Source: Candidatus Staskawiczbacteria bacterium (GTDB lineage Bacteria > Patescibacteriota > Minisyncoccia > Minisyncoccales > Staskawiczbacteraceae). From it: a DNA stretch of 64,000 nt. Position 1 is the first letter of the stretch. The number at the start of each line of letters is the position of its first letter. The stretch spans positions 80,532 to 144,531 of the forward strand of contig CAILLM010000004.1 of NCBI GenBank assembly GCA_903835075.1, in the 5' to 3' direction. Made by a program: the position numbers and the translations under genes. The notes below the pieces were generated by a model. That model ran no database searches and was not told the DNA's origin. It worked only from the letters and a program-made list of their open reading frames with translations. Below, in pieces: positions 33,377 through 64,000 of the stretch.

Positions 33377-34245
33377 AAAAAATAATTGGCATTCAACTAA
33401 TTTTTCTATTTTTATTTTTTGGTTTATTTTTAGCACCACAGGCAGTTAATGCTTCTGTTGGTGTAACTTTTTCTGTGTCATCTCCAACTGCCAATACGGT
33501 ATATTATCCGGGAGAAACTATGTGTATGAATGGGACTATCACAACCACGACCTGCGGGAATACAGTAATAAGTGATGTATCATATACACTTAATTTGGCA
33601 GGACAGCAGTTTTCTGGACATCTTAATTATCTTAAAAATGCAACTACTACTTGGAACAAATGTGTGATTGTCCCCCCTACAACGCCTTGCGGTCCTACAA
33701 ACATGAATTTGGTTTTAAGCGTTGTGTCTTATCATGGAGGTTCAGCCGATACTATTAATAATGCTAATAATAGTACAGACACTTCTACCTATAATGTACC
33801 TGTTATAATTGGACAAAAGGGAGTTTGTGGCTCAGCAGTAAACACGCCTACGGCAACAAGGCCAAGCAGTGGGCTTTGTAACACGGGCAATCCTTCAAAC
33901 GTTTCAAGAAAGGAAAGTGATGGCACTTGGGATTGGTCATGTGATACAAATTATAATTACCCCAGCAATGCTGACGCAAGTTGTGTCCCAAGTAATACAC
34001 CATGCAAAGTTGCCAACACTGGAATTGTTGGAGCTTGTGGCACAAATGGTGCATCTTACCCACCTGGAAAAACATACCCCGCAGGAGCTACTTCTTTTAC
34101 TGGTACTTTTTGCATTAACAACCTAACTCCAACTCCTTCGCGACCAGTTTTCCCAACAACATCTACACCAACAACTTGGACATGCCCCAATGGTGCCTCA
34201 TATGTAACCTGTGGTGCTATTTTTACGCCAGGTGTTTGTAATTAA
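33373..34245 (+). CDS. Secreted protein carrying two copies of the four-Cys CG...LC..G...W.C...C module
   Basis: Signal peptide ending AVNA. The two modules are GVCGSAVNTP...GLCNTGNPS...WDWSC...SC and GACGTNGASY...FC...WTCPNGASYVTC. Confidence 0.65.
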   Translation: MKKIIGIQLIFLFLFFGLFLAPQAVNASVGVTFSVSSPTANTVYYPGETMCMNGTITTTTCGNTVISDVSYTLNLAGQQFSGHLNYLKNATTTWNKCVIVPPTTPCGPTNMNLVLSVVSYHGGSADTINNANNSTDTSTYNVPVIIGQKGVCGSAVNTPTATRPSSGLCNTGNPSNVSRKESDGTWDWSCDTNYNYPSNADASCVPSNTPCKVANTGIVGACGTNGASYPPGKTYPAGATSFTGTFCINNLTPTPSRPVFPTTSTPTTWTCPNGASYVTCGAIFTPGVCN

Positions 34246-34273
34246 TTGGCACGCATAATTTAAAAAATAAAAA

Positions 34274-35893: not shown

Positions 35894-35911
35894 AAATATT
35901 ATTTTAAGATA

Positions 35912-40135: not shown

Positions 40136-40152
40136 AATTGTAAATAAAATAT

Positions 40153-51916: not shown

Positions 51917-51987
51917 TGCGGGATCGTCTAATGGTAGGACACGGCCCTTTGAAGGCTGGTATCTAGGTTCGAGTCCTAGTCCCGCAG
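51917..51987 (+). tRNA. tRNA-Gln (anticodon UUG)
   Basis: Hand-folded. Acceptor TGCGGGA/TCCCGCA (the U1-A72 pair is typical of bacterial tRNA-Gln), D arm GTCT-AATGGTA-GGAC, anticodon loop CT-TTG-AA, T arm CTAGG-TTCGAGT-CCTAG. Confidence 0.9.
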
Positions 51988-52092
51988 CAGTGATATTACA
52001 CGCCGAGTAACTGAGTCGTCCCGACTATTTTAGTAAAAAGTTCGAAATATAATTCCCGTATGGGAATGAGTCTCGAACAATACCAAGCAGAT

Positions 52093-52119
52093 AAAAAATC
52101 GCCAAACAGGCGATTTTTT
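52093..52119. terminator. Bidirectional terminator-like hairpin between tRNA-Gln and the SIR2 gene
   Basis: aaaaaatcgcc-aaaca-ggcgatttttt. Confidence 0.7.
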
Positions 52120-52155
52120 GGTAAAATGCATTATTGTAAAATAATTTATTAATAT

Positions 52156-53172
52156 ATGCCATTAATTACCAAAAAGAATATTTTATTAACTGGCGCTGGT
52201 TTCAGTGCTAACTTCGGCGGTTTATTATCTAGGGAAATGTGGTCAAAAATACTAAGCAATCCAAAAATGGATCAGTTGCCACAAATAAGAGAAATACTAA
52301 GAAAGGATTTCGATTTTGAGTCAGTGTACTCAAATGTCAAAAAAAATGTATCAATCAGTAAGGACGATAAGAATTTATTTCAAAAGATTGTTTTTGAAAG
52401 CTATTCTAGCATGGACGATGCTTTAAAAAATTATCGCATTGGTGGTTTCCCAAAATCAGGTTTTTATATAGGTAATGTTACCAAATTGTTGGGTGAATTT
52501 TCTGGATTGGGAGGAGAGGTTGGTGCTCATTTTACACTTAATCAAGATTTATTAGTTGAAAGAGAAACACAAATAATACCCCTTGGTCTCTCTACGCCAC
52601 AAAATTCAACTTATCGGAATGACATAAATTCAAAGCAGATTGATTTTACTAAGCAGGTGGTATTGCCCGATGATCAGTCGCTAGAAGAATTTAAATCTAA
52701 ATACCTACCTTCTAACGGTAGCTATTGTTATATAAAATTGCACGGCTCGCTTGGATGGTTATCACACTATGGGCACCAGCAATTAATCTTAGGCACAAAT
52801 AAAATAGAAGACATTAAAAAAGAGCCTTTGCTTAATTGGTATTTCGATATTTTCAAAGACGCCCTTTCGCAGAATGGAGTCAAACTATTTGTGCTCGGTT
52901 ATAGTTTCCGTGATGAGCATGTAAACGAGATAATTATAGATGCAATAGAAAAAAATCATATACAAATTTATATAATTTCACCAGAAGATCCCGAGGGATT
53001 TAAAGACAGAATGGAGGGCAAAATTTTATATGGATCTTACGAGATAAAAAATACAATAAAAATATGGAATGCCGTAGATGGTTATTTCCCATATCGGTTA
53101 AGTGAGATTTTTCCTTCTAATCAAATGGATACAGCCGTAGCTCAAGATATAAAAAAAGCTATGAATAAATAA
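52156..53172 (+). CDS. SIR2-like (SIR2_2 type) NAD-binding domain protein
   Basis: N-terminal NILLTGAGFSANFGG (GAGxS NAD loop) and YIKLHGSLGW (catalytic-His context). 338 aa with no other domain. Confidence 0.7.
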   Translation: MPLITKKNILLTGAGFSANFGGLLSREMWSKILSNPKMDQLPQIREILRKDFDFESVYSNVKKNVSISKDDKNLFQKIVFESYSSMDDALKNYRIGGFPKSGFYIGNVTKLLGEFSGLGGEVGAHFTLNQDLLVERETQIIPLGLSTPQNSTYRNDINSKQIDFTKQVVLPDDQSLEEFKSKYLPSNGSYCYIKLHGSLGWLSHYGHQQLILGTNKIEDIKKEPLLNWYFDIFKDALSQNGVKLFVLGYSFRDEHVNEIIIDAIEKNHIQIYIISPEDPEGFKDRMEGKILYGSYEIKNTIKIWNAVDGYFPYRLSEIFPSNQMDTAVAQDIKKAMNK

Positions 53173-54789
53173 ATGAAACTTTTGGATAATGGCACATATG
53201 CAATAGAAATTGATAATAGACTTTTAGAGCTAACAACCAAAGATAAAGAGCTAAAAGTATCAGAAGAGGAATTTAAGGCGGCATTAAAGGGCTATAAGCT
53301 CGACGAATTTTTGATTGTTTTAGCAGAAATATCAGAAAAATTGTTTGATCCTAATTTTAAAGAAAATCCTATTTGGAAAAAAGAAAAAGTTGGTTTTATT
53401 ATACATAAACCAAGCGAGCAGTTTGTGACTGATTTTGCGGTTGAATACATTGCAAATATATTATTAATTTCTGGTTCAAATGATTTTAAAAATGAAAGTA
53501 TCAAAAATAAAGATAATGTTGTGGCAATATTCAGTATTTATCATAACTCTATAATTCATCCAAGAATTCAATCGGGCAACATAGCATCGTTGTTAGTGCC
53601 AATGTTTTATCAACAGATGACAAGCCAGCAAGATATAAAAGATACTTTTATTCGGCAATGGTTGATATTTCAAGGTGCGCAAGAGCTAGTCGACCCAAAA
53701 AATAAACTTGATTTGGATAAAATATTGCTAGAAGAAAATGGAATGACCGTTATTGAGTACATAAAATTGTGTTTTTTAATTTTAGCAACAATATTAACCA
53801 AACCAAGGTTTAATTTTGGGACCTTTGATAAGCCTACAATTCCCGGATTGGACGATGTTCTAAATAGCGAGAAAATTTCTGCGATATTAAAACAATTGTC
53901 TGTGTCTAAGAATGAATTTGTTAAACTAGATAAAGAATTGAATGCCGGCTTAAGTCCAGAACATACAAAAAGTAGATATAACCCTTTATGGGAAAAGCCT
54001 ATCGTAATATTAGGAGATAATGACTATGTAGTGCCGAGTATAAGTGCTTATGCCAAGGGGGCTTTGAGAGGGCTCTATTGGATATTTGAAAATGTAAAGG
54101 CTAAAATATTTAGAGACTATTTCGGATTATTATTTGAAAAATATTGTGGCACAGTGATTCAAGACATTTTTGGTAGGGAAAACGTAAGGCCAGGGATAAG
54201 ATTTGGCAAAGATAACCAAGAATTTTTTGATTGGATAGCCAACAGGGAAAAGGAAATAATTTTATTCGAAACTAAGGGGTATCAGTTTCCTTTGAAAACT
54301 CTACAAACGGGTAGTCCCGATCTTGTTAGAAAGGAGGTGTTTAATAAATTAGTAGAAACAATCAGGCAAACTTATCGGCGCTTTCAAGATATTCAAAGTC
54401 ACGATGAATTGAAAGAATTTAGGAATAAAAAAATAACTGTTGTTGCTGTATTTTACGACATACCGTTTGTATCTACAAACGTGTATGACCCCGATATAAA
54501 ATCAGCATTAAACGGGCTAAATGCTAGATACCCAGGAATTAAAGATTTTGAATATGTTTTTTTATCAATTGAGGAGCTGGAAAATTATTACTATGTGAAA
54601 GATTATATTTCTATAGAGGATCTGGTAAATAAAGTAAAAGGTACACCTGGCGCCGGCGTTATTGATCAAATAAGTAAGGTCTTCAAAGAAAATAATTTAA
54701 CGGCCGAGGATCATAAAAATTTGTTAGATAGAAAGTTTAGAGATTTTTACGAAAACGAATTAGGCGTCCCATATTCGGAAGAAGAGTAA
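53173..54789 (+). CDS. Uncharacterised 538-aa partner of the SIR2 gene, with a C-terminal PD-(D/E)xK-like motif
   Basis: Its ATG directly follows the SIR2 TAA. FFDWIANREKEIILFETKGYQF (about 54222-54290) has D-x12-E-x-K spacing. No Walker motif and no TM helix. Confidence 0.6.
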   Translation: MKLLDNGTYAIEIDNRLLELTTKDKELKVSEEEFKAALKGYKLDEFLIVLAEISEKLFDPNFKENPIWKKEKVGFIIHKPSEQFVTDFAVEYIANILLISGSNDFKNESIKNKDNVVAIFSIYHNSIIHPRIQSGNIASLLVPMFYQQMTSQQDIKDTFIRQWLIFQGAQELVDPKNKLDLDKILLEENGMTVIEYIKLCFLILATILTKPRFNFGTFDKPTIPGLDDVLNSEKISAILKQLSVSKNEFVKLDKELNAGLSPEHTKSRYNPLWEKPIVILGDNDYVVPSISAYAKGALRGLYWIFENVKAKIFRDYFGLLFEKYCGTVIQDIFGRENVRPGIRFGKDNQEFFDWIANREKEIILFETKGYQFPLKTLQTGSPDLVRKEVFNKLVETIRQTYRRFQDIQSHDELKEFRNKKITVVAVFYDIPFVSTNVYDPDIKSALNGLNARYPGIKDFEYVFLSIEELENYYYVKDYISIEDLVNKVKGTPGAGVIDQISKVFKENNLTAEDHKNLLDRKFRDFYENELGVPYSEEE

Positions 54790-54820
54790 GCCTAAATATA
54801 TATACAGACATCAAATTTAG

Positions 54821-56164
54821 TTATTCTAATATAATTTTTTTATCTTTTAGAATTAGTTTACTTTTTAGGAAAAATAATAGTTCTCGTTTTTCAATTAGGG
54901 TTCCTTCGTTGAGTAAATATTTCGCATAATTCCTAACATCGATATCTGAATTATGGGTTTCTTTATTATGGCCCAGCACTCCAATTCTAAATTTATTGAA
55001 TCTCGCTAATTCTTTTTCAACTGTAGCCTTTACCCCGAGTTCGTCTAAGTTGATTTTATCCATCAACTCAATAAGTTCAGCTATCAAGCTCTGCTCATTC
55101 AGGGCTGGATTTTTACAGGCTATATCTCTGGCCTTGTTGCAGAAATAATAGACGTGCCTATTTACTCCGCCATTTAGTAGTTTTTTAAATTTCTCATCGG
55201 CTGATATTCCTGATCCGCAATACCCGCATTTAATCAATTTGGTGAAGGCGAATTCTTTTGATTCTGATTTTGGTATATACCTGTCATTTAATGTGGTTTG
55301 AACTTTATCAAACAACTCTTTAGATATTATCGGTGTATGTTTTCCATTGTACCAATTGCCACTGCCAACAGGGTATTCAAACTCACCATAGTAAAAAGTA
55401 TTTCTCAGTATTAGGTAAATGTTACCAAGCACCAAAGCTTTGCCTGTTCTCGTTTTGAATCCTGTATCACGTAGCCACATATATACTTTTCTGCCAGACC
55501 AATTTTCATTAGCCAATTTCTCAAATATCTGTTTAATTACCGGAGCACGTTTTGGGTCTAGTCTACATTGGCATTTTTTATCAACATGTTTTTCGTTTAG
55601 ATATCCTGTCGGCGCTACGCCGGGGCGATATCCCATTTCACATCGCGTTCTTAATCCACGCTTTACATTTACCGCCTTGTTATCATTTTCCAGTTTTGCT
55701 TGACTGCCGAGAATCATCAGTAAGAATTTTTCGTTTGGATTATTAGTGAACCTTTGTCCATGAGTTCTTATCTCAATTAGCAGTTTTTGATCCATTAAAT
55801 CTACTACAGATCCCAAATCTCCGGCATTTCTTGATAACCTGTCTGGAGCCCATGTTAAAATGGCATTGTATTTGCCTTCACGAATTTCAGTAATCATTTG
55901 GTTAAATACAGCTCTTTGTCCAACCTCTTTGGAAGAGTGCGCCTCGCGTTTAATATCGATGATATTCAAATTATCACGTTGTGCCAGACTCAGCATTTCT
56001 TTTACCTGCGATTCTATGGATAGAGCTTGTTTGTCCTCAGCTTCTGTGGATTTCCTCGCATAGAGGCAGTATTTGAGTATTGGAGCGACTATGACCGGGG
56101 ATTGCCGACTGTTTTGCGTTGTTGCTATTTGTTGCATAATTTTTGTTTTAGTTATTAATAGCAC
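54821..56164 (-). CDS. Large serine recombinase (resolvase domain, recombinase domain, zinc ribbon, coiled-coil)
   Basis: YARKSTEAEDKQALSIESQ (catalytic Ser), LTWAPDRLSRN, recombinase-domain GY.PG.AP.GY, and zinc ribbon CGYCGSG...YYFC. An alternative start is the ATG at 56137 (MQQIATT). Confidence 0.9.
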   Translation of the reverse strand: MLLITKTKIMQQIATTQNSRQSPVIVAPILKYCLYARKSTEAEDKQALSIESQVKEMLSLAQRDNLNIIDIKREAHSSKEVGQRAVFNQMITEIREGKYNAILTWAPDRLSRNAGDLGSVVDLMDQKLLIEIRTHGQRFTNNPNEKFLLMILGSQAKLENDNKAVNVKRGLRTRCEMGYRPGVAPTGYLNEKHVDKKCQCRLDPKRAPVIKQIFEKLANENWSGRKVYMWLRDTGFKTRTGKALVLGNIYLILRNTFYYGEFEYPVGSGNWYNGKHTPIISKELFDKVQTTLNDRYIPKSESKEFAFTKLIKCGYCGSGISADEKFKKLLNGGVNRHVYYFCNKARDIACKNPALNEQSLIAELIELMDKINLDELGVKATVEKELARFNKFRIGVLGHNKETHNSDIDVRNYAKYLLNEGTLIEKRELLFFLKSKLILKDKKIILE

Positions 56165-56293
56165 ATATTCGACCTTTGCAAGGACAAGGATGACGCAACG
56201 GTGCTAAGGAGTCCAGACCCCATCAGTTGAAAACTCCCAGCTTTACGAAGAGCTGTTTTAGGTATAAACTTAAATAAATTATAAGATATATTT

Positions 56294-57106
56294 ATGATTA
56301 AACCGTATTATAAAAAAGGTGATTTCACCTTATACAATGCTGATAGTCTGAATTTTTTAGAGTCATTGCCTGAAAATTCTGTTGATATGATTTTCGCAGA
56401 TCCACCATATTTTCTTTCAAATGGTGGTTTTAGTGTCCATTCTGGAAAAATGGTAAGTGTTGATAAGGGACAATGGGATGTTAGCAATGGATTAAAAAAA
56501 GATTTTGAGTTTCATCTTGCATGGACAAAAGCTTGTCATAGAGTTTTAAAACCAGGGGGAACTATTTGGATAAGTGGTACATACCATTCTATATATTCAT
56601 GCGGTTTTGCTTTACAGGTTAACAAATTTCACATGTTAAATGATATTACGTGGTTTAAGCCCAATGCTTCACCTAATTTAAGTTGTCGCTTTTTTACTGC
56701 TAGCCATGAAACCTTGCTTTGGGCACGTAAAGAAAAAAAAGCAAAACATACATTTAATTATGATTTAATGAAAAATGGTGATTGGCCGGAAGATCAATTG
56801 AAGAAACCTGGCCTACAAATGCGGTCAGTTTGGGCCATAGGAACACCAAAACCCATTGAAAAGAAGTTTGGCAAGCATCCAACCCAAAAGCCCGAAGATT
56901 TGCTAAGAAGAGTCGTACTTGCGAGTACCAATAAGGGAGATCTTGTGTTAGATCCATTTACTGGTAGCTCTACGACGGGAATTGCTAGCCATTTATTAGG
57001 AAGAAAGTTTGTAGGCATTGATACCGAAAAAATTTTTTTAGATGTATCGATAAAAAGGTTTGAAGAGCTAGATAAAAATTTAATAAATAAGCATTTAAAA
57101 TCATGA
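56294..57106 (+). CDS. Beta-class N6-adenine DNA methyltransferase, M.DpnIIB (DpnA)-like (GATC)
   Basis: Motif IV DMIFADPPYFLSNGG lies before motif I LDPFTGSSTTG. Long collinear matches to my recollection of DpnA (VSVDKG.WD, NDITW.K.N..PNLSCR.FT.S.ETLLWARK, GKHPTQKPE.LL). Confidence 0.88.
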   Translation: MIKPYYKKGDFTLYNADSLNFLESLPENSVDMIFADPPYFLSNGGFSVHSGKMVSVDKGQWDVSNGLKKDFEFHLAWTKACHRVLKPGGTIWISGTYHSIYSCGFALQVNKFHMLNDITWFKPNASPNLSCRFFTASHETLLWARKEKKAKHTFNYDLMKNGDWPEDQLKKPGLQMRSVWAIGTPKPIEKKFGKHPTQKPEDLLRRVVLASTNKGDLVLDPFTGSSTTGIASHLLGRKFVGIDTEKIFLDVSIKRFEELDKNLINKHLKS

Positions 57107-58023
57107 AGTTGTTACCATTTTATAAAGAAAAATTAGGATGTGAAAGTGAGAATGATGTTTTCGAATATTTCATAAAAAATTTGAAGCCGAGTATTTTGCT
57201 TTGGTCATATTTTGTAAATTGGGATAAGGTTTTTGAGAATACTAGAAAGATTGAAATTGCTTTAAATAATCTCAATTATTTAATTGGCAAAGATGATTTC
57301 GATAAAGAATTTAAATTTTTAATCAAGCAATATCCTGAAGTTGTTAAGGTCGTCCCAGCTTTAGTCGTTAGAGACGGGGGCAACACGGACAAATTTAATA
57401 TTTTAGTCGATTATAAAAATAAAAAATTTGTTTACGAAAATTATGACTTTACTAAGGTTAATCTAAGCGATGAAGATGTTGAGAAGTATTTAATGTTTGT
57501 TAAAAAAACCGGGTTAAAGGATCTAATAACTTCGCAAAAAATAAAAAATTTAGTTGATTATATGATAGGGGTGGAGGCTGGTTTAGATAGTAACGGACGC
57601 AAGAATAGAAGCGGTCACTCTATGGAAGATATCGTAGAATTTTTCATTGATGATTTTTGTAAGAGCAAAGGATTTAAATACTTAAAAGAAGCTACTGCTG
57701 AAAAAATTAAGCAAGAATGGGACTTTGACGTTCCGTTTGATAAGTCCTCTCGCCGTTATGATTATGTAGTTAGCAATGGCAGTGAATTATTTATTTTTGA
57801 AACTAATTTCTATGGAGGGGGCGGTTCTAAGCTGAAATCTACAGCTGGAGAATATCGAAATTTATTCGATGTTTTTGGCGGGAAATATAAATTTATTTGG
57901 ATTACAGATGGTTTTGGTTGGAAGAACCTACAAAGACCCTTAAGAGAAACTTTTGATCATAATGATTATTTGATTAGTCTAGATATGATTGAAAATGGTA
58001 TTTTAGGTGATATTCTAAGGTAG
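57103..58023 (+). CDS. Type II restriction endonuclease, DpnII/MboI family (GATC)
   Basis: LVDYMIGVEAGLDSNGRKNRSG, FIFETNFYGGGGSKLKSTAGEY and FIWITDGFGW match conserved DpnII blocks as I recall them. ATGA overlap with the methylase gene. Confidence 0.85.
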   Translation: MKLLPFYKEKLGCESENDVFEYFIKNLKPSILLWSYFVNWDKVFENTRKIEIALNNLNYLIGKDDFDKEFKFLIKQYPEVVKVVPALVVRDGGNTDKFNILVDYKNKKFVYENYDFTKVNLSDEDVEKYLMFVKKTGLKDLITSQKIKNLVDYMIGVEAGLDSNGRKNRSGHSMEDIVEFFIDDFCKSKGFKYLKEATAEKIKQEWDFDVPFDKSSRRYDYVVSNGSELFIFETNFYGGGGSKLKSTAGEYRNLFDVFGGKYKFIWITDGFGWKNLQRPLRETFDHNDYLISLDMIENGILGDILR

Positions 58024-58045
58024 GAAGTCATCAATATGGTAATTT

Positions 58046-59773
58046 ATGTTTATTAAACAATTCTCAATTAGATACTTTAGAAATATTAAGACACTAGATT
58101 TGCTATTGGAGAAAGGTCTAAATATTTTTATTGGAGAAAATAATTCTGGTAAAAGCACAACCATGGATGCACTAAGGGTATGCTTAGGTTGGGGCGATCA
58201 AGATAAAGGTGTTTTTATTAAACCAGATGATTTATATATAGAAAGATCGAATTACCAGATTGGTCCTAAGCCGATTGAATTTGATTTAATATTTAGAATT
58301 GAGGACGAGATAGAGCAGTCAATTTTTTATGATTTGCTATCTAAAAAGGGCGAAGAATTAGAATTACAAATTCATTATAGATTTTTCTTTGAAGAAAAAA
58401 ATGATAGAAAATTATTTCGTTGTTCTATATGGGGAGGAGATAACGAAGGTCAGAACATTCCAGCAGAAATTCTTGATTTAATCCGGCATATATATCTCGG
58501 AGCACTGAGAGATGCGTCAAGAGATTTGCAACTTAGTAAGGGCAACAAATTAGGAAGTTTGTTGGAAAAGATTGAACCAAATAAAATACGCCAACTGGAG
58601 CTATCGCAAAAGTTAGATGACTTATTACATAAAGATGTAGACTGGAAAATCATCAGGGAAGCTGCAAAGAATAAAATTAATGAGCACCTTAATAATTCTT
58701 CTATAAAAGGCAAGGAAATTGAGATCGACTTAAGATTTATAGATTCTGAATTTAAAAAAATAGTAGGTGATTTGAGGGCTAGATTGCCAGTTTACCCTTC
58801 TTTAGCAGAAAACGATAAAAATCAAAAGTGGTTTCAAATAAATCAAAATGGCCTTGGAGATAACAACCGGATATATATCGCTTCTGTTTTAGGAGATTTG
58901 TTGGGCATACGAGAACTAGAAAGTGAAACTTATGTCGCACTGTTGATTGAGGAACCGGAAGCTCATTTACATCCACAGCTACAGAATATTCTATTTTCAT
59001 ATTTTGAACAATTATCTAACAAAATTCAGGTATTTATTACTTCGCATTCTCCAACAATTACCGCTAAAACGCTACTCAATACCGTCACGGTGTTCCAAAA
59101 TGTTAACGATGAAATTCATGTTTTGGCTATGAAAAATTCTGACTTAGATATAGAAGACAAGGCATACTTGCATAGGTTCCTCGATGTGACAAAGGCGCAG
59201 TTATTCTTTGCAAATGGGGTGATTCTTGTAGAAGGCATATCGGAGGCGTTGCTTTTCCCGGTTTTTGCCGAGATCATGGGCAAAAATGAAGGCGATGAAA
59301 ATAAATATAATCTTACGAAATGGGGAGTAGAGATAGTTAACGTCGGCGGAGTATCTTTTAGTTATTTCGCAAAAATATTTAATTCAATCGATAGTAAAAA
59401 AAGATTAAACAGTAGGTGTGTTTTGGTAACAGACTCTGATCCAAAGGAGAATGAAGTTATGTTATCTGGAAGAGCGCAAAGAGCGGCAGAAATGAAATCT
59501 GGTCTTCTTGATGTACAACTTTCTAAAAAGACTTTCGAGCATGATTTATTCAATGACTCAGATAAGAACTCAGTGACAATAAAAGAAGTTTATAAAGAAA
59601 TGCATCCTCAGACATCAATAAAAAATGTCAACGATTTCATGGAAAGATTAAAATCAAATAAGGATAAAGGAGAGTTTGCTCAAAAATTAGCTGAAAAGAT
59701 CAATAATGATAATTTTACGATTCCAGAGTATATTAGTAATACTATAAAGTGGGTAACCAAAAGTGTTGAATAA
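58046..59773 (+). CDS. gajA: Gabija GajA: OLD-family ATPase plus Toprim nuclease
   Basis: IRYFRNI..L, Walker A GENNSGKST, LLIEEPEAHLHPQLQ and ITSHSP (ABC-type ATPase), then Toprim VILVEGISEALLFP...VNVGG...VLVTDSDP. 575 aa. Confidence 0.8.
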   Translation: MFIKQFSIRYFRNIKTLDLLLEKGLNIFIGENNSGKSTTMDALRVCLGWGDQDKGVFIKPDDLYIERSNYQIGPKPIEFDLIFRIEDEIEQSIFYDLLSKKGEELELQIHYRFFFEEKNDRKLFRCSIWGGDNEGQNIPAEILDLIRHIYLGALRDASRDLQLSKGNKLGSLLEKIEPNKIRQLELSQKLDDLLHKDVDWKIIREAAKNKINEHLNNSSIKGKEIEIDLRFIDSEFKKIVGDLRARLPVYPSLAENDKNQKWFQINQNGLGDNNRIYIASVLGDLLGIRELESETYVALLIEEPEAHLHPQLQNILFSYFEQLSNKIQVFITSHSPTITAKTLLNTVTVFQNVNDEIHVLAMKNSDLDIEDKAYLHRFLDVTKAQLFFANGVILVEGISEALLFPVFAEIMGKNEGDENKYNLTKWGVEIVNVGGVSFSYFAKIFNSIDSKKRLNSRCVLVTDSDPKENEVMLSGRAQRAAEMKSGLLDVQLSKKTFEHDLFNDSDKNSVTIKEVYKEMHPQTSIKNVNDFMERLKSNKDKGEFAQKLAEKINNDNFTIPEYISNTIKWVTKSVE

Positions 59774-59775
59774 AA

Positions 59776-61494
59776 ATGTTTAATTCTTTATCAGATGAGC
59801 AAAAAAAGATTGTTTTTGCTGACTTAGAAAAAATAGTTGTTAGGGCTTGTCCGGGAAGCGGCAAGACTTTTACAGTAACAGCTAGACTGGCAAATAAAAT
59901 TTCAAAGTGGGAAGATAGATATATCGGCATAGCTGCTTTGTCTTTTACAAATACTGCTTGGCAAGAAATAGAAAAAAATTTACCAAAATTTGAATGTGGA
60001 CCAATAAAGAGGCCGCATTTTTTAGGTACGATTGATAGTTTTATAAATAATTATATATTTCTTCCGTTTGGTCATTTGGTTATGGGCTGTGAAAAAAGAC
60101 CGAAGCTAGTTGGTGAACCGCACAGTAAATGGTCTGGGCGTTTTTATAGCGAGCAATGGTTCGATAAATCTTCGTTCAATATAAACGATGAGTTTATCTT
60201 TACTCAGAAATATCCTATACCTCCAACCGCTAAAGCGGCCGTGGTTAAGGCTATCAAGAATAAAAAGATGGAATTGATAAGTCTTGGCTATGCGAACCAA
60301 CATGATGCAAATTACTTTGCTTTAAAAATTTTAAAAAAATATCCTGAAATTGCAGAATCATTAGTCGCAAGGTTTCCAATATTGTTAATTGACGAAGCAC
60401 AAGATACAACAGAAATACAAATGGCGATTATAGATGAATTAGTAGGAGCTGGATTAAAAGAAATTCTTATTGTTGGAGATCCAGATCAGGCTATATTTGA
60501 ATGGAATGATGCTAATCCAGATCTCTTTGTAAAAAAATGTAGTGAGTGGGAACTAAAACAGTTAGAAGAATGCAGGAGGAGCTCTCAAGATATTTGCAAT
60601 TTCGTTCATAAATTATCGACATTAAGTGCACCAGCGCGCTCTGTATCTACTGAAGTTGCAACCCTAGGCATAAAGCCAGATATTATAGAATATGACAACC
60701 TGTTATCTATAAAAAATACATTTATAAAAAGATGTGAATCTGAAGATATTCCTATAAAAAAAGAGGATGTCTCTATCTTATGTAGAACAAAAGGCGCTGT
60801 TAATGAAGTTGTAAATGTGTTTGAAGGAGCACCCATCGTAACAGGCCCTACATTTTTTAATGACTCTGATATTTGGGAAGAGAGATTTATATGGTGCAGA
60901 GACATCTGTGAAGGTCTCTATCTAATAAGTAAGGGAGAATTTAAAAATGGCTATAGGATATTAGAAAGGGGGTGCTTTAAGATTTTAAATGAAAATCATT
61001 ATTCAAAGGAAAACTTGAGGTTGCATATTAAAAATATTGGACTAGTAAACTGGCGAAAATTTATTAATGATATAATAGTCTCTGCGCCCGATATATCCGG
61101 CGATTTATCTGCTTATCTATCTTCTTTCTCCCCGATGGCAGAAAGCTTTTTCAATGAAATGAATATATTAACTGCCGTTAAGAATAATAAAAAAAGTCTA
61201 TTAATTAAAGATATTTTTGGAATTTCTGACGCTGATTCTAAATTTTCACATTTACCTATTCGACTCGGAACAATTCATTCGGTGAAGGGGGAAACGTTTG
61301 ATGCGACTCTTCTAATTTTGAAAAATAGAATAATGAATACAAAATATCAGACAATATTAAGCAGGTGTAAAAAAGACAAGTTATTAGAGGAGGAGTTGAG
61401 GACATTATACGTAGCGATGACAAGGCCTAGAAAAATATTAATAATAGGTGTGCCTCAGGGAGATGGTAATATGTGGAACGCTTTTTTAAATTAA
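59776..61494 (+). CDS. gajB: Gabija GajB: UvrD-like superfamily-1 helicase
   Basis: Walker A CPGSGKTF, LLIDEAQDT, IVGDPDQAIFEW, IHSVKGETFDA and LYVAMTRPRK. It starts 2 nt after the gajA stop. Confidence 0.8.
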   Translation: MFNSLSDEQKKIVFADLEKIVVRACPGSGKTFTVTARLANKISKWEDRYIGIAALSFTNTAWQEIEKNLPKFECGPIKRPHFLGTIDSFINNYIFLPFGHLVMGCEKRPKLVGEPHSKWSGRFYSEQWFDKSSFNINDEFIFTQKYPIPPTAKAAVVKAIKNKKMELISLGYANQHDANYFALKILKKYPEIAESLVARFPILLIDEAQDTTEIQMAIIDELVGAGLKEILIVGDPDQAIFEWNDANPDLFVKKCSEWELKQLEECRRSSQDICNFVHKLSTLSAPARSVSTEVATLGIKPDIIEYDNLLSIKNTFIKRCESEDIPIKKEDVSILCRTKGAVNEVVNVFEGAPIVTGPTFFNDSDIWEERFIWCRDICEGLYLISKGEFKNGYRILERGCFKILNENHYSKENLRLHIKNIGLVNWRKFINDIIVSAPDISGDLSAYLSSFSPMAESFFNEMNILTAVKNNKKSLLIKDIFGISDADSKFSHLPIRLGTIHSVKGETFDATLLILKNRIMNTKYQTILSRCKKDKLLEEELRTLYVAMTRPRKILIIGVPQGDGNMWNAFLN

Positions 61495-61596
61495 CGATCG
61501 TACAGATTTAGGATTTTTTCATATTTGTGATATAATAATTTAACAATTTAATAATTCGCCTAAACTCATATATTTCTATGGGCATGGCACTAAAGT

Positions 61597-61693
61597 CTAA
61601 ACAAGCATAAAGATCCCATCATGGGGTTGCTTGTTTAGCCATATCGGGAAACTGGTATGAGAGGTTTCGGCCTCTACCCGTGGTGGGTTTTTT
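61597..61693 (+). ncRNA. Candidate structured leader / small RNA upstream of the zinc-ribbon gene
   Basis: Perfect 11-bp stem ctaaacaagca/tgcttgtttag (61597-61638) with a nested ccca-tca-tggg. Then agagg-tttcgg-cctct (61660-61675), then accc-gtggt-gggt plus T6 (61676-61693). An extended -10 TGaTATAAT lies at 61528-61536. Confidence 0.3.
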
Positions 61694-61733
61694 GTTAAAG
61701 CGAAATCCTTCCCTGGGTGAAAAAATAATAAAT

Positions 61734-62447
61734 ATGGAAAATAACGGCGAAACAAAAAAGTGTTTGCATTGCCAAACGGATATTCCGTTAAAAGCCAAGA
61801 AATGTCCACATTGTCAAAGCGATTTAAGAAGTTTCTGGGCTCGACATATAATATTTACGGGCTTTTTACTTATGATATTGCTTGTAATATTTATGGGTAT
61901 GATCAGTGATCTTATCTCTGGGTTTAGCACCAGTACAACAAATAATCAGCCACAAACAAAGGTAAAAACGCAGTTAAGTCCGGAACTTACCCAAAAAAGC
62001 AAGGAGGCCTTGGCAAGCATGAAAAAGGATCGTGATGATATAGGACAAGTTACTTTTTATCTAGACCCTTCGTCACCATTATCACACAACACAAATAATG
62101 TTGAGGTCTATATCTCTAAACCAGATGATGAAAGTGCTATTCTCCGTTTCGCTGTTTCGTATGCTGGTGAAGAGTGGTTGTTTATAAACAAATATATATT
62201 TAACATTGATGGAAAAAATGTTGAGGTGAATCCTTACAAAGTAGAAAGAGACAATTCAAACACTATCTGGGAATGGTCTGATGACCCTATAACAACAGAC
62301 TGGTCTGCATTAGCGTTTGCCATCGCACACTCTAAGGTAGCCAAAATAAGATATGTTGGAACAAAATATTATGATGACAGAGTAATAACTGAAACTGAAA
62401 AAAAAGCTATTAATAATGTCTTGAATGCCTATTTAGTAGTTAAATAA
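61734..62447 (+). CDS. Zinc-ribbon, single-TM protein with an extracytosolic domain, unknown function
   Basis: CLHCQTDIPLKAKKCPHCQSDL zinc ribbon, a TM helix (IIFTGFLLMILLVIFMGMI), then about 170 aa. I prefer the ATG at 61734 over the track start at 61680. Confidence 0.5.
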   Translation: MENNGETKKCLHCQTDIPLKAKKCPHCQSDLRSFWARHIIFTGFLLMILLVIFMGMISDLISGFSTSTTNNQPQTKVKTQLSPELTQKSKEALASMKKDRDDIGQVTFYLDPSSPLSHNTNNVEVYISKPDDESAILRFAVSYAGEEWLFINKYIFNIDGKNVEVNPYKVERDNSNTIWEWSDDPITTDWSALAFAIAHSKVAKIRYVGTKYYDDRVITETEKKAINNVLNAYLVVK

Positions 62448-62514
62448 TAATCACACAGGATGTTCTCCCTACATAGATTGATTTTCCTAAGAAAAAGAGT
62501 ATAAATGGTATAGC

Positions 62515-63228
62515 ATGAAGAAACCAATTTTATTACTTACAATCCTATTGTCGGCTAGCATTGCTGGGCCCGTTTTTGCTACTTATGGCATTCAAACTAA
62601 AACAAAAAATTGTACCGCAAATCAAATTCTCCAAGACTCCGCCTGCACGCCGGGTGCAGTTTTAACAACCAATACGGCTGTTATTTGTAAAACCGGCTAT
62701 ACAAAAACTGTAAGGAGCGTTTCTGATTCAACAAAGAAGAAAGTGTTTGCAGAATATGGAATACCATATAGCCAACATAGCAACTATGAAGTAGATCATT
62801 TGATTAGTCTTGAACTCGGAGGTGGTAACGATATTTCAAACCTCTGGCCAGAGAATTCCAAAATCAAAAACGGTTCACTTTCAAAAGATAATTTTGAGAA
62901 TTATTTACATAACCAAGTTTGTAAAGGAAAAATGACGTTGGTAGAAGCTCAAAAAGAAATCTCATCGAATTGGGTCACATACTACCAAGCAGTTTCAGCG
63001 GGCAAGCCAATAACTCCTACAACGGTAACACCAACTCAAACTCCGAATCCAGTTCCAACTCCAGTTGTAACGCCGACACCTGTCCAGACCATTATTCCCG
63101 TTGTAACGCCGAGCACAACAGGCCATCCAGCAGGAGTAACCGGAAAATGCAATGACGGAACTTATACTTCTGCGATTAATCATAGCGGAGCTTGCTCTCA
63201 TCACGGTGGAGTCTCCGTATGGTATTAA
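62515..63228 (+). CDS. Secreted HNH-motif nuclease with a Pro/Thr linker and a DUF3761-like Cys tail
   Basis: Signal peptide, YEVDHLISLELGGGNDISNLWPE (HNH core), a PTPV-repeat linker, and a C-terminal GKCNDGTYTSAINHSGACSHHGGV. Confidence 0.65.
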   Translation: MKKPILLLTILLSASIAGPVFATYGIQTKTKNCTANQILQDSACTPGAVLTTNTAVICKTGYTKTVRSVSDSTKKKVFAEYGIPYSQHSNYEVDHLISLELGGGNDISNLWPENSKIKNGSLSKDNFENYLHNQVCKGKMTLVEAQKEISSNWVTYYQAVSAGKPITPTTVTPTQTPNPVPTPVVTPTPVQTIIPVVTPSTTGHPAGVTGKCNDGTYTSAINHSGACSHHGGVSVWY

Positions 63229-63241
63229 TTGCAGTTGATAT

Positions 63242-64000
63242 TTAGAATTTCTTTTTTAACAATCCGTAAGTAATTGGCCTGCTATTATCATCGTCTCCTG
63301 ATTCTGGATCATCCGGTCCATGAATATCGGGGAATGGGCAATATGTCGAACCCTCGGCCATAACCTCTGATACTAGCATGGATAAAGCATCTGCAAGATC
63401 CATGTAATTTTCGCTGCCGAAATTAACTATTTGCATTACCACTTCTTCATTGCCTCGTGGTGCAAATTGCACAGTACCATTTTTGATGTGATGGCTGATT
63501 AAGGCTAAACGTGCACGTTTATCTCCTTGTGGCCTTACGCCTAACGCTGGATATCTTTTTTCTTGCAGAACTTGTACTAATCCTTTTTGGAAACCAACAT
63601 CTTCAACGTAAATTGTTTTTACGTTATAGTTACTATAAAGATATTTTGCCCGTTCAATGATTGTTGGCAAGCCAATGCGTTCGTTGATTGGATAAGGTTG
63701 AATATATATCTTTGTATCTTTGCCCCAACCGAATACTTTAGCAACAATCATAGCCGTGCAAGCAGACTTTTTTTCTTCAGAAATTGCAGGGTCAACTCCA
63801 ATAAATGCTCCTCTGTATCGATTAGCAGTTGTTGGCATCGGGCATTCTCCGTATTGTATCCATTCAGGATGAATAACGCGTTCGTGGTCTGAAACAATGC
63901 GAAGCAAGAATTCTTGGGTGAATGCTTTTTCGTTTCCCACTCTCATCCGTTCGGCTTCTACCGCTGCGAGGTTAGGATATTTTGCTTTCCAGAGAATTTT
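63242..64000 (-). CDS. Phage terminase large subunit, C-terminal nuclease half (partial, continues beyond the window)
   Basis: The frame stays open upstream of the listed Met to base 64000 (KILWKAKYPNLAAVEAER-MRVG...). AFIGVDPAIS...ACTAMIV...IYVEDVGFQ...DLADAL is RNase-H-like TerL nuclease architecture. Confidence 0.6.
   Translation of the reverse strand, partial: KILWKAKYPNLAAVEAERMRVGNEKAFTQEFLLRIVSDHERVIHPEWIQYGECPMPTTANRYRGAFIGVDPAISEEKKSACTAMIVAKVFGWGKDTKIYIQPYPINERIGLPTIIERAKYLYSNYNVKTIYVEDVGFQKGLVQVLQEKRYPALGVRPQGDKRARLALISHHIKNGTVQFAPRGNEEVVMQIVNFGSENYMDLADALSMLVSEVMAEGSTYCPFPDIHGPDDPESGDDDNSRPITYGLLKKKF

What the first reader, a model, noticed from the sequence alone, without database searches (positions are those of the whole stretch)
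51917..64000. Housekeeping synteny ends at tRNA-Gln, followed by a 12 kb mosaic of defence and phage genes
Upstream of tRNA-Gln(UUG) the genes are core functions (dnaX, cysS, dnaB, recR). Downstream, every gene is accessory:
- the SIR2 pair
- a large serine recombinase on the opposite strand
- a DpnII-type R-M system
- Gabija
- a zinc-ribbon membrane protein
- a secreted HNH nuclease
- a TerL terminase fragment running off the window

The last ~1.5 kb is visibly more GC-rich: my hand count is 31/60 at 63301-63360, against 18/60 on typical core lines such as 15361-15420. Together, a tRNA-adjacent position, a recombinase, defence cargo and phage packaging genes suggest a prophage or phage-derived island whose defence genes sit at the integration-proximal end.

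I could not find a second copy of the tRNA 3' end by eye. Large serine integrases do not need long repeats, so the ends are unresolved, and there may be two nested elements.
Basis: partly seen in the sequence, partly recalled or inferred. Interest (0 to 1): 0.6.

Follow-up and report, generated by a model that had tools for sequence, protein, structure and literature searches.

The report
Phage-derived defence island with LOOT RNA
Next to a tRNA gene in a tiny 'candidate phyla radiation' bacterium sits a 16-kb capsid-less piece of an integrating phage that carries several anti-phage systems and a structured RNA of unknown function (LOOT), which turns out to travel with this kind of element.

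Summary
Core synteny (recR-dnaB-cysS-dnaX) ends at tRNA-Gln(UUG), 51917-51988. Every gene named downstream is there, and the hand GC counts are exact.

The source contig could be read 19 kb further. It shows a complete TerL, a TerS-like gene and a ParB-methyltransferase, then a sugar-modification cluster that is chromosomal in a related genome. There is no portal, capsid or tail, so this is not an intact prophage. It is a 15.8-kb island, 51,989 to about 67,791.

Its backbone recurs in dozens of CPR metagenome and IMG/VR contigs, beside various tRNA genes: large serine recombinase, LOOT RNA, TerL, TerS, ParB-methyltransferase. One 56-kb IMG/VR phage carries the same backbone (without LOOT) together with head, tail and lysis genes.

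Defence genes fill variable slots:
- SIR2 and a PD-(D/E)xK-like nuclease lie between the tRNA and the recombinase.
- DpnII R-M and Gabija are inserted between the recombinase and LOOT.
- LOOT leads a membrane zinc-ribbon protein and a secreted HNH-like protein.

It lies near a serine recombinase in 25 of 30 non-redundant loci. A co-oriented gene follows it in 76 of 79, which suggests a cis leader.

The parts
51917..51988 (+). tRNA-Gln(UUG). It marks the left boundary. It is the last feature shared with all Staskawiczbacteria relatives.
   Evidence: ARAGORN and Rfam tRNA, 60.8 bits. It is conserved downstream of dnaX in more than 30 related genomes. GATC and TCGA depletion ends here.
52094..52123 (.). 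Terminator-like hairpin, aaaaaatcgcc-aaac-aggcgatttttt, at the start of the SIR2 cassette.
   Evidence: Read from the sequence. L043 has a 30-nt match at 97% just after its own tRNA-Gln. The 85%-identical SIR2 cassette shared with L024 starts at 52092.
52156..53172 (+). SIR2-domain protein (338 aa). Cargo in slot 0, between the tRNA and the 3' end of the recombinase.
   Evidence: Pfam SIR2_2, 2.5e-10, and PADLOC SIR2 models down to 3.5e-12. L024 has an 89% aa homologue in the same slot without the 538-aa neighbour. PDB SIR2-family hits are weak.
53173..54789 (+). 538-aa protein with no family hit. Predicted to be a restriction-endonuclease-like, PD-(D/E)xK nuclease. Cargo in slot 0.
   Evidence: No Pfam, PADLOC or PHROG hit. 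About 50 homologues exist, all unnamed. D353, E366 and K368 are invariant (A5). The AF2 model has pLDDT 91.7. Foldseek hits are Upx (9wuf), the Nt.BspD6I nickase and restriction enzymes, all at low TM-scores. Homologues sit in other serine-recombinase/LOOT elements without a SIR2 gene.
54821..56137 (-). Large serine recombinase (438 aa from the ATG; 447 aa from the upstream GTG at 56164). The integrase of the backbone.
   Evidence: Pfam Resolvase, Recombinase and Zn_ribbon_recom. PHROG 95 'integrase', 6e-65. The YARKST catalytic motif is present. Homologues at 35-83% aa lie on the same strand just downstream of tRNA-Gln in L022, L024, L028, L031, L037 and L043.
56165..56255 (.). Conserved non-coding control region upstream of the recombinase. 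It has an invariant AGTCCAG and GTWGRYAA-type boxes. In relatives it directly abuts the LOOT promoter.
   Evidence: Alignment A3 of 11 loci. A terminator-like hairpin is predicted at 56238-56255.
56294..58023 (+). Type II restriction-modification pair: an N6_N4 methyltransferase (56294-57106) and a DpnII-family endonuclease (57103-58023). Cargo in slot 1.
   Evidence: Pfam 4e-58 and 1.5e-90. PADLOC MTase_II 2.4e-98 and REase_II 1.3e-90.
58046..61494 (+). Gabija: GajA (58046-59773) and GajB (59776-61494). Cargo in slot 1.
   Evidence: PADLOC GajA 1.5e-150 and GajB 6.7e-171, both full length. Pfam AAA_15 and OLD-like TOPRIM for GajA, and UvrD helicase for GajB.
61531..61695 (+). LOOT RNA gene (Rfam RF03000; model match 61557-61675), with a conserved upstream box (TTAACAATTTAATA) and an invariant 3' tail ACCCGUGGUGGG followed by a U-run.
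   Evidence: Rfam, 85.3 bits against a gathering score of 46.4, E 1e-14. A 165-bp DNA match at 79-81% occurs in L022, L024 and L043. Hairpin 2 shows compensatory changes. The tail and U-run are near-universal in 116 loci. Terminator-like sites are predicted. The fold z-score is -4.45.
61734..62447 (+). Zinc-ribbon plus single-transmembrane-helix protein (237 aa). The first gene downstream of LOOT. Cargo in slot 2.
   Evidence: Pfam DZR is weak, 0.0015. The translation shows CxxC...CxxC and a transmembrane helix. The gene call comes from the source contig.
62515..63228 (+). Secreted protein (237 aa) with an HNH-like motif and a C-terminal DUF3761 domain. Cargo in slot 2.
   Evidence: Pfam DUF3761, 3e-9, and a weak Endonuclea_NS_2 hit. 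A signal peptide and the EVDHLISLELGG motif are visible. L096 has a 56% homologue on the other side of its recombinase.
63242..64000 (-). 3' part of the large terminase gene. The complete gene is 507 aa and runs to 64,765 in the source contig. A TerS-like gene (138 aa) and a ParB-N6_N4 methyltransferase (445 aa) follow on the same strand, ending at 66,483.
   Evidence: Pfam Terminase_6C. The full-length protein hits PHROG 38, 2e-66. The extensions L001, L302 and L301 overlap with no mismatch. Walker A, Walker B and nuclease residues are invariant in alignment A2.

Best explanation
**What it is.** The 12 kb after tRNA-Gln are the first three quarters of a 15.8-kb phage-derived integrative island. 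It runs from window position 51,989 to about 67,791 of the source contig. The host is a Candidatus Staskawiczbacteria (CPR) chromosome.

**Backbone.** The island is built on a backbone that recurs in many CPR contigs:
- a large serine recombinase lying tail-to-tail next to a tRNA gene;
- a conserved control region;
- the LOOT RNA;
- on the recombinase strand, TerL, a TerS-like gene and a ParB-methyltransferase.

**Relation to phages.** Complete temperate phages with this backbone exist. This copy has no head, tail, lysis or replication genes. It is therefore a capsid-less derivative: a cryptic prophage arm, or possibly a helper-dependent satellite.

**Cargo slots.** Cargo occupies three variable slots.
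- Slot 0, tRNA to recombinase: SIR2 and a PD-(D/E)xK-like nuclease.
- Slot 1, inserted between the recombinase control region and the LOOT promoter: a DpnII-type R-M system and Gabija.
- Slot 2, downstream of LOOT: a membrane zinc-ribbon protein and a secreted HNH-like protein.

**How it works: shown and inferred.**
- Shown: the gene content, the order, the recurrence, the left boundary, and the right boundary by synteny.
- Inferred: the recombinase placed the element beside the tRNA without long repeats. Cargo is exchanged between related elements by recombination in the conserved backbone. The island protects the cell through restriction, Gabija and NAD+/nuclease effectors. LOOT acts in cis as a 5' leader with a terminator that gates the genes just downstream.
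For: **Host and left boundary.**
- The organism and its synteny: dnaX is 86% identical to Ca. Staskawiczbacteria. The order recR-dnaB-cysS-pgsA-gtrA-dnaX-tRNA-Gln is conserved in more than 30 genomes.
- Site polymorphism: L014 and L064 have pcrA 0.5-0.7 kb after tRNA-Gln. L013, L034, L058 and L020 have 2-6 kb of other DNA. L022, L024, L028, L031, L037 and L043 have a homologous recombinase on the same strand with different cargo: a CfrBI R-M system, a reverse transcriptase plus SNase, and a Dnd/Ssp-like system.
- Composition: GATC obs/exp is 0.28 before 51.9 kb and 0.84 after; TCGA is 0.21 and 0.74. For GATC, p = 3e-12.

**Extension and right boundary.**
- TerL is complete (PHROG 38, 2e-66), followed by a TerS-like gene and a ParB-methyltransferase.
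- There are no structural genes up to 82.9 kb.
- From 67,792, exactly the APH start codon, the DNA is 85% identical over 8.9 kb to L304. There the block continues to tRNA-Ile and ftsZ.
- L304 carries LOOT, an SNase, a TerS-like gene and a ParB-methyltransferase (58% aa) at the same junction.

**Backbone recurrence.**
- 120 LOOT loci came from one metagenome scan.
- The serine recombinase is by far the commonest neighbour: 51 loci, 25 of 30 non-redundant loci with at least 2.5 kb on both sides, and 39 clusters at 90% identity.
- Of the 17 IMG/VR loci with TerL at 36% identity or more, 15 (all but L224 and L225) show ParB-methyltransferase, TerS, then TerL. In 11 of them a recombinase follows within 0-9 kb.
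- In many loci the recombinase 3' end abuts or overlaps a tRNA 3' end. At least nine tRNA identities are involved.

**Link to real phages.** IMG/VR contig 3300025154_002045 (56 kb) has the same backbone without LOOT (none found in L213), plus a major head protein (1e-31), a weak portal hit, tail fibre and spike proteins, and an amidase.

**Cargo is defence.** It includes type I and IIG R-M, MADS-like genes, a reverse transcriptase and CBASS (Cap15).

**Slot 1 is an insertion.** In 11 loci the recombinase and LOOT are 105-195 nt apart, separated only by a conserved region. The window retains that region at 56165-56255 and the LOOT promoter box at 61531-61556.

**LOOT as a leader.** 76 of 79 non-redundant loci have a co-oriented next gene (p = 3e-19). 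The median distance from the U-run to the start codon is 42 nt.
Against: - No att sites were identified.
- No strain-level empty site and no excised circle was found. Every contig carrying the identical flanking proteins also carries the island.
- The right boundary rests on one related genome, L304, whose left flank was not seen.
- The island has no recognisable repressor, excisionase or replication gene, so present-day mobility is unproven.
- GATC and TCGA non-depletion continues through the syntenic sugar cluster to 82.9 kb. Composition therefore marks the left edge only.
- The LOOT loci were retrieved with a pattern that fixes the hairpin-2 apex.
- Five of 30 well-flanked LOOT loci show no recombinase, and the complete phage lacks LOOT.
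- ORFs in related loci are mechanical calls, and only part of the cargo was annotated.
Confidence: 0.62

Rival explanations
1. It is an active phage satellite. The capsid-less 15.8-kb element keeps its own integrase and a working TerS/TerL motor. A helper phage of the same family induces it, and it is packaged into the helper's capsids. In this way it spreads its defence cargo.
For: - TerL is full length, with Walker A, Walker B and nuclease residues invariant across seven homologues at 36-42% identity.
- The recombinase catalytic motif is intact.
- The size and layout resemble PICI and P4-type satellites. Integrase sits at one end, there are no virion genes, and defence cargo lies in a hotspot.
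- Two tandem backbone copies lie 13 kb apart on one IMG/VR contig (L294, L296).
- A complete phage with the same backbone exists and could act as helper.
Against: - No replication, repressor, antirepressor or excisionase gene was found in the island.
- Several relatives have lost TerL yet keep TerS and the ParB-methyltransferase (L149, L179, L199, L304). That argues against selection for packaging.
- No excised form was seen.
- No known satellite family carries TerL and TerS without capsid genes (own knowledge).
Confidence: 0.22
2. It is an intact prophage whose portal, capsid and tail modules lie further along the contig.
For: - TerL, a TerS-like gene and a ParB-methyltransferase lie just beyond the window.
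- In the related complete phage the structural operon is far from the terminase arm and converges on the recombinase. In the integrated form it would therefore be expected at the far end.
Against: - The contig was read for 16.5 kb beyond the ParB-methyltransferase. It holds h243, a sugar-modification cluster, and then a different recombinase element inserted in a pyrophosphatase-like gene. No structural gene appears.
- The sugar cluster is syntenic with chromosomal genes leading to ftsZ in L304.
Confidence: 0.04
3. It is a passive chromosomal hotspot. Unrelated fragments (a stray recombinase, a terminase remnant, defence cassettes) accumulated independently next to tRNA-Gln. No element ever existed as a unit.
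For: - tRNA-Gln is followed by variable DNA in most relatives, with or without a recombinase.
- The SIR2 cassette is 85% identical in DNA to L024, whereas the adjacent recombinase is only 66% identical. This shows piecemeal exchange.
- Non-native GATC and TCGA frequencies extend 31 kb.
Against: - The same order of recombinase, LOOT, TerL, TerS and ParB-methyltransferase recurs next to different tRNAs. It occurs in a complete phage (without LOOT there), in more than 15 IMG/VR loci and in at least 10 metagenome loci, with proteins only 40-80% identical.
- The recombinase-LOOT intergenic region is itself conserved.
Confidence: 0.1

Closest known systems
Temperate phages with large serine integrases (phiC31, Bxb1, TP901-1, SPbeta type). 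Own knowledge of the family.
   Same: The integrase has the three-domain architecture Resolvase + Recombinase + zinc ribbon. It lies at the edge of the integrated DNA. There are no long direct repeats at the ends. A related complete phage genome exists.
   Different: This copy lacks virion, lysis and replication genes. Elements of this family sit beside tRNA genes, and in the long-recombinase subfamily the gene overlaps the tRNA 3' end. That habit is typical of tyrosine integrases. The terminase operon reads towards the integrase, with cargo in between.
Defence hotspots of P2-like prophages and P4-like satellites, and PICI/cfPICI satellites. Own knowledge: Rousset et al. 2022; Fillol-Salom et al. 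2022.
   Same: A conserved mobile backbone with an integrase at one end. Between fixed backbone genes lie slots that hold a different anti-phage system in each copy. The size is 10-18 kb and there are no tail genes.
   Different: The integrase is a serine, not a tyrosine, recombinase. The hosts are CPR bacteria. Both TerL and TerS are carried without capsid genes; PICIs carry TerS only, and cfPICIs carry a whole capsid module. No primase/rep or repressor genes were found. A structured RNA (LOOT) is part of the backbone.
LOOT RNA, Rfam RF03000 (Weinberg et al. 2017 motif set; Rfam 14, PMC7779021).
   Same: The window copy matches the full 121-position model at 85 bits against a gathering score of 46.4. 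The helices are the same and are kept through compensatory changes.
   Different: In the texts that could be read, the family is described only as a metagenome-based RNA (PMC7779021), and Rfam types it as an sRNA gene. No organism, neighbour or function was found for it. Here it is placed in Staskawiczbacteria/Patescibacteria, inside serine-recombinase phage-derived elements, and it behaves like a 5' leader.
Gabija (GajA/GajB) and DpnII-family type II restriction-modification.
   Same: The GajA and GajB profile matches are full length and the genes are adjacent. The DpnII-family endonuclease overlaps an N6_N4 (DpnA-like) methyltransferase by 4 nt.
   Different: Only one methyltransferase is present. 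The canonical DpnII cassette also has a Dam-like DpnM (own knowledge). Specificity was not tested. The host chromosome is GATC-depleted but the island is not.
SCCmec-type chromosomal cassettes moved by large serine recombinases (CcrAB). Own knowledge.
   Same: A cargo-carrying chromosomal island without virion genes, moved by a large serine recombinase to one specific site at the 3' end of a conserved gene.
   Different: Here there is one recombinase, not a pair. Phage packaging genes are present. The cargo is defence, not resistance. The target lies beside a tRNA.

Membership tests
Large serine recombinase (phage-type integrase) | N-terminal resolvase catalytic domain with the catalytic serine, a recombinase domain and a zinc-ribbon domain, in a protein of 400-700 aa. 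| tested here: met
   Pfam PF00239, PF07508 and PF13408, all above their cut-offs. The YARKST motif is present. PHROG 95 'integrase', 6e-65.
Large serine recombinase (phage-type integrase) | Identifiable attL and attR half-sites flanking the integrated DNA. | tested here: inconclusive
   No repeats were found. None is required for this family. No empty site close enough for DNA alignment was available.
Intact prophage | Portal, major capsid, tail and lysis genes contiguous with the terminase and integrase. | tested here: not met
   The source contig was read to 82.9 kb. Nothing was annotated as a virion gene (Pfam only; several ORFs have no hit), and the block from 67,792 to 76,655 is host-syntenic. 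A related 56-kb phage has these genes.
Phage satellite (PICI / cfPICI / P4-like) | Integrase at one end, a size of about 7-18 kb, and no tail genes. | tested here: met
   The island is 15.8 kb, the recombinase sits at the tRNA-proximal end, and no virion genes are present.
Phage satellite (PICI / cfPICI / P4-like) | Its own replication module (primase/rep) and a regulatory module (repressor, AlpA or Stl-type). | tested here: not met
   Pfam, PHROG and PADLOC scans of all island ORFs of 60 aa or more found none. Some relatives carry an HUH Rep or a RepO-like gene.
Phage satellite (PICI / cfPICI / P4-like) | Helper-dependent induction and packaging. | not testable with these tools
   This needs virome reads or an experiment.
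Gabija | GajA (ABC-type ATPase plus OLD-like TOPRIM nuclease) next to GajB (UvrD-like helicase). | tested here: met
   PADLOC GajA 1.5e-150 (residues 1-572) and GajB 6.7e-171 (residues 1-569). Pfam AAA_15, OLD-like_TOPRIM and UvrD-helicase. The two genes are 2 nt apart.
Type II R-M, DpnII family | A DpnII-fold endonuclease with a cognate adenine methyltransferase. | tested here: met
   PF04556, 1.5e-90, and PF01555, 4e-58. The ORFs overlap. GATC specificity was not tested.
Known SIR2 defence systems (Thoeris, SIR2-HerA, DSR1/2, SIR2-pAgo) | A SIR2 protein with the system's partner or architecture: a TIR ThsB, a HerA ATPase, a single protein of more than 1000 aa, or a short pAgo. | tested here: not met
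   The SIR2 protein is 338 aa. Its neighbour has no P-loop, TIR or PIWI domain and is predicted to be a PD-(D/E)xK nuclease. The two genes occur apart in L024, L172, L306 and L307.
LOOT RNA (RF03000) | A covariance-model score above the gathering threshold over the full model. | tested here: met
   85.3 bits against 46.4, model positions 1-121. Further copies score 64-92 bits in L022, L024, L043, L223 and L239.
LOOT RNA (RF03000) | Helices supported by compensatory changes. | tested here: met
   Hairpin 2 reads CTAAACAAGC/GCTTGTTTAG, CCAGTTAGAC/GTCTAACTGG and CGTATGAAGC/GCTTCATACG in different copies. Published R-scape support is cited in PMC7657543 and PMC11701678.
Cis-regulatory leader (riboswitch or attenuator type) | Fixed orientation and a short distance to a downstream gene, with a terminator between them. 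| tested here: met
   76 of 79 loci are co-oriented, the median gap is 42 nt, and the U-run sits at a fixed position.
Cis-regulatory leader (riboswitch or attenuator type) | Conditional read-through or alternative pairing shown by covariation or transcript data. | tested here: inconclusive
   A perfect complement of the tail lies 5-15 nt after the U-run in 18 of 98 loci, against 0.9% of shuffles. It also appears in the window's minimum-energy fold. There are no transcript data.

The most novel reading that the evidence does not exclude
LOOT would not be a free-standing sRNA. It would be a cis-acting leader that forms an integral part of an undescribed family of serine-recombinase temperate phages, and of their capsid-less derivatives, in CPR bacteria. 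It would gate expression of membrane-anchored or secreted nucleases and superinfection-exclusion-type proteins. The 16-kb forms that keep an intact TerS/TerL but no capsid genes would be helper-dependent satellites that ferry defence systems between these ultra-small bacteria.
Probability: 0.3. Interest if true: 0.75.

Novelty: new variant of a known kind. Interest (0 to 1): 0.6.

Why it matters
**Defence in CPR bacteria.** These bacteria have tiny genomes and few recognised mobile elements. They are nonetheless reported to have a high density of defence systems (PMC12259885). This locus shows one concrete vehicle: a recurrent element that combines a serine recombinase with a terminase module. 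Its fixed slots hold a different defence system in each copy, much like the P2/P4 and PICI hotspots of enterobacteria.

**An orphan RNA gains a context.** LOOT receives a host clade, a genomic setting and a testable role as a leader of cargo genes.

**A source of recombinases.** The recombinases lie beside many different tRNA genes. That offers a set of natural large serine recombinases with predictable, distinct target sites, which is of practical interest for genome engineering.

Tried and rejected
- **tRNA repeats.** I searched for a repeat of the tRNA 3' end or its flank across 52-73 kb, and in 22 related loci. Only chance-level 9-14-mers turned up. The best local alignment, at 66.5 kb, scored 26 and is not credible.
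- **Other repeats.** A general direct and inverted repeat search of 51.9-64 kb gave AT-rich chance matches only.
- **Strain-level empty site.** Look-ups of the exact 567-aa flank protein and of dnaX returned only contigs that carry the island. All are 99.85-100% identical to the window.
- **Viral-contig scans.** TerL as a single query against IMG/VR found nothing. An alignment was needed. The LOOT apex pattern also found nothing in IMG/VR, although Rfam later found diverged LOOT copies in L223 and L239.
- **Right boundary in other genomes.** In L022, L024 and L043 nothing downstream of the recombinase matches any other fetched genome locus.
- **Structural genes next to the backbone.** None appeared among 77 non-backbone ORFs of IMG/VR loci. 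They appeared only after walking 20 kb along one 56-kb contig.
- **SIR2 plus the 538-aa protein as one two-gene system.** Rejected as an obligate pair, because each occurs without the other.
- **LOOT as an attachment site or a recombinase guide.** Not supported. In the long-recombinase subfamily, replication genes lie between the recombinase and LOOT. The LOOT apex is invariant, not programmable.
- **Literature.** In the texts that could be read I found no function, organism or neighbourhood for LOOT.

Full report
**1. The observation**

ARAGORN and Rfam place tRNA-Gln(UUG) at 51917-51988. Upstream are recR, dnaB, cysS, a CDP-alcohol phosphatidyltransferase and dnaX. Equivalog-level NCBIfam hits support them.

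- a SIR2_2 protein;
- a three-domain large serine recombinase on the minus strand, with an intact YARKST catalytic motif;
- an N6_N4 methyltransferase overlapping a DpnII-family endonuclease;
- full-length GajA and GajB;
- a zinc-ribbon plus transmembrane protein;
- a signal-peptide protein with an HNH-like motif and a DUF3761 domain;
- the nuclease domain of a large terminase, running off the window.

The two hand GC counts are exact. The GC rise covers about the last 1.1 kb (0.40-0.44 against a window mean of 0.35). It is not unique in the window. No copy of the tRNA 3' end and no repeat above chance exists in the region.

**2. An independent boundary signal**

The chromosome left of the tRNA is strongly depleted in GATC (46 observed, 165 expected) and in TCGA (35, 165). 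From 52.0 kb onward both are much nearer expectation: GATC 56 against 66, TCGA 49 against 66. For GATC, Poisson p = 3e-12. The change is sharp at the tRNA. It persists to the end of all sequence I could add, at 82.9 kb. It therefore marks the left edge of non-native DNA, not the right edge of this element.

**3. Beyond the window**

Exact-protein look-ups recovered contigs identical to the window over their overlaps. In source-contig coordinates, the genes beyond the window are:
- TerL, complete at 507 aa (63,242-64,765; PHROG 38, 2e-66);
- a 138-aa TerS-like HTH protein;
- a 445-aa ParB-N6_N4 methyltransferase, ending at 66,483;
- a 237-aa protein of a widespread CPR family with no annotation;
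- from 67,792: APH, DegT, an epimerase, an aminotransferase, a FemAB-like gene, AP endonuclease, PIG-L and others.

No portal, capsid or tail gene occurs up to 82.9 kb.

A related genome, L304, is 85% identical in DNA from exactly the APH start codon for 8.9 kb. It then continues into tRNA-Ile and ftsZ. That block is therefore chromosomal, and the island ends at about 67,791, a length of 15.8 kb.

L304 has its own LOOT, an SNase, a TerS-like gene and a ParB-methyltransferase (58% identical) at the same junction.

At about 76,655 the window's genome has a second element, with a 580-aa serine recombinase and a primase/helicase-like gene. It is inserted in a pyrophosphatase-like gene that is intact in L304.

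**4. Who and where**

dnaX is 86% identical to Candidatus Staskawiczbacteria. The order recR-dnaB-cysS-pgsA-gtrA-dnaX-tRNA-Gln is conserved across more than 30 genomes. What follows the tRNA differs:
- pcrA within 0.7 kb in L014 and L064;
- 2-6 kb of unrelated DNA before pcrA in L013, L034, L058 and L020;
- a homologue of the window's recombinase (35-83% aa), on the same strand, in L022, L024, L028, L031, L037 and L043.

The cargo beside those recombinases is different each time:
- a CfrBI-type R-M system;
- a reverse transcriptase with an SNase-type protein;
- a DndA/SspA-like protein with methyltransferases.

L024 carries the same SIR2 cassette. It is 85% identical in DNA, whereas the adjacent recombinase is only 66% identical.

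**5. The overlooked RNA**

A 165-bp stretch just after gajB is 79-81% identical in L022, L024 and L043. It is a full-length LOOT RNA: RF03000, 85 bits, at 61557-61675. It carries a conserved upstream box, compensatory changes in hairpin 2 and an invariant 3' tail followed by a U-run. Eight recombinase-free relatives have no LOOT in the fetched DNA.

**6. LOOT travels with serine recombinases**

One metagenome scan with a LOOT pattern returned 120 loci.
- The serine recombinase family is by far the commonest neighbour. It occurs in 51 loci, and in 25 of 30 non-redundant loci with at least 2.5 kb on both sides. The recombinases fall into 39 clusters at 90% identity.
- In 11 loci the recombinase and LOOT are divergent neighbours, 105-195 nt apart, separated by a conserved control region.
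- The window keeps that region at 56165-56255 and the LOOT promoter box at 61531-61556. The DpnII and Gabija block between them is therefore an insertion.
- In many loci the recombinase 3' end abuts or overlaps the 3' end of a tRNA gene. Ser, Ala, Arg, Asp, Gly, Gln, Met, Asn and Lys tRNAs are all represented.

**7. The packaging arm belongs to the same unit**

At least 10 LOOT loci carry TerL, TerS and the ParB-methyltransferase on the recombinase strand.

Among the 17 IMG/VR loci whose TerL is at least 36% identical, 15 (all but L224 and L225) show ParB-methyltransferase, TerS, then TerL. In 11 of them a recombinase follows within 0-9 kb. Rfam finds LOOT in two of these loci.

The genes in between are type I and IIG R-M systems, MADS-like genes, helicases, a kinase and a reverse transcriptase. 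No structural genes appear.

Walking one 56-kb IMG/VR contig past the recombinase revealed a CBASS effector. After it comes a convergent operon with a weak portal hit, a major head protein (1e-31), tail fibre and spike proteins, a LysM protein and an amidase. That contig has no LOOT in the part scanned. The backbone therefore comes from real temperate phages, and the window's copy is a capsid-less derivative.

**8. What LOOT probably does**

In 76 of 79 non-redundant loci the next gene is co-oriented with LOOT (binomial p = 3e-19). The median distance from the U-run to the start codon is 42 nt.

The downstream genes are diverse, but most encode membrane-anchored or secreted proteins:
- a transmembrane SNase;
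- an Ltp-like lipoprotein;
- a DUF2726 protein;
- an OB-fold membrane protein;
- in the window, the zinc-ribbon protein and the HNH-like protein.

An exact complement of the 3' tail lies 5-15 nt after the U-run in 18 of 98 loci, against 0.9% of shuffles. It also forms in the window's minimum-energy fold. This fits a cis-acting leader with a terminator better than a free sRNA. No transcript data were available.

**9. The unknown 538-aa protein**

It has about 50 unnamed homologues. A D...ExK triad is invariant. The AlphaFold model is confident, at pLDDT 91.7. Its nearest solved folds are Upx, the Nt.BspD6I nickase and restriction endonucleases, all at low TM-scores. Its homologues again sit in serine-recombinase/LOOT elements, without a SIR2 gene.

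**10. Verdict**

- The finding is real.
- Its 'phage-derived island at a tRNA' reading is right.
- Its 'prophage continuing beyond the window' reading is wrong.
- Present-day mobility, the att sites and the satellite idea remain untested.
- The link between LOOT and serine-recombinase elements in CPR bacteria is the part a specialist would not have expected.

Noticed in passing
window 31900-40150: Relatives have the homologue of gene 30656-31858 directly followed by the Zincin_1 gene (40153). The window has 8.3 kb in between, encoding proteins of 460, 290, 539 and 1407 aa (Big_13/Ig-like). Its GC is 0.39-0.43, yet it shows native-like GATC depletion. This looks like a second, older variable region of surface proteins.
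   Followed up: partly
window 1-30530 versus 30656-51988: In L013, L014, L020, L034, L035, L058 and L064, tRNA-Gln is followed by homologues of window genes 141-1034, pcrA (1679-4552), 6060, 15315 and 23.5-30.4 kb, ending at tRNA-Lys. In the window that whole block lies upstream of the recR-dnaX segment. The two blocks have swapped order in this lineage, and the island sits at the broken junction.
   Followed up: partly
window 1-51900: The native chromosome avoids GATC (obs/exp 0.28) and TCGA (0.21). Related genomes also avoid GATC (0.28-0.67). The DpnII-type system that presumably cuts GATC is carried on DNA that is not GATC-depleted.
   Followed up: partly
window 15859-17493: A purH gene (E 2e-115 to solved PurH structures) has a GC of about 0.50 in a genome of 0.35, and no GATC sites occur in 16-20 kb. 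This may be a horizontally acquired purine-salvage gene in a CPR genome.
   Followed up: no
source contig about 76,655-80,600 (L301 9650-14575), beyond the window: A second large serine recombinase (580 aa) lies here with a 92-aa gene and a primase/helicase-like protein (NrS1-1_pol HBD + AAA_25). The element is inserted in a pyrophosphatase-like gene that is 306 aa in L304 but truncated to 197 aa here.
   Followed up: partly
source contig 67,003-67,178 (inside the 237-aa gene to the right of the ParB-methyltransferase): At least five independent assemblies break here: scaffold_570 and scaffold_247 at about 67,003, and L002, L004, L303 and a 20-kb ENA contig at about 67,175. Many homologues of this gene family are recorded only on 1-2 kb contigs (longest contig). 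This may mark a repeat or a population-level junction.
   Followed up: partly
L011 9230-9301 and 11872-11943: Two tRNA-Gln(UUG) genes flank the homologue of the 567-aa lipoprotein-like gene. In many relatives dnaX is followed directly by tRNA-Gln. The 567-aa gene (window 50107-51810) may therefore be an older insertion at the same tRNA.
   Followed up: no
L294 / L296 (IMG/VR contig 3300014205_009253): Two copies of the ParB-methyltransferase, TerS, TerL and recombinase module lie about 13 kb apart on one 25.6-kb contig. This is a tandem arrangement of related elements.
   Followed up: no
L043, L091, L180, L306 and other loci: In about 10 of 54 cases LOOT and its downstream gene point towards the recombinase instead of away from it. 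In L306, LOOT heads the operon that ends in the recombinase.
   Followed up: no
L309 1-500: A reverse transcriptase with a bAvd gene, the signature of a diversity-generating retroelement, lies next to a TerL/TerS/ParB-methyltransferase-like arm in another CPR contig.
   Followed up: no
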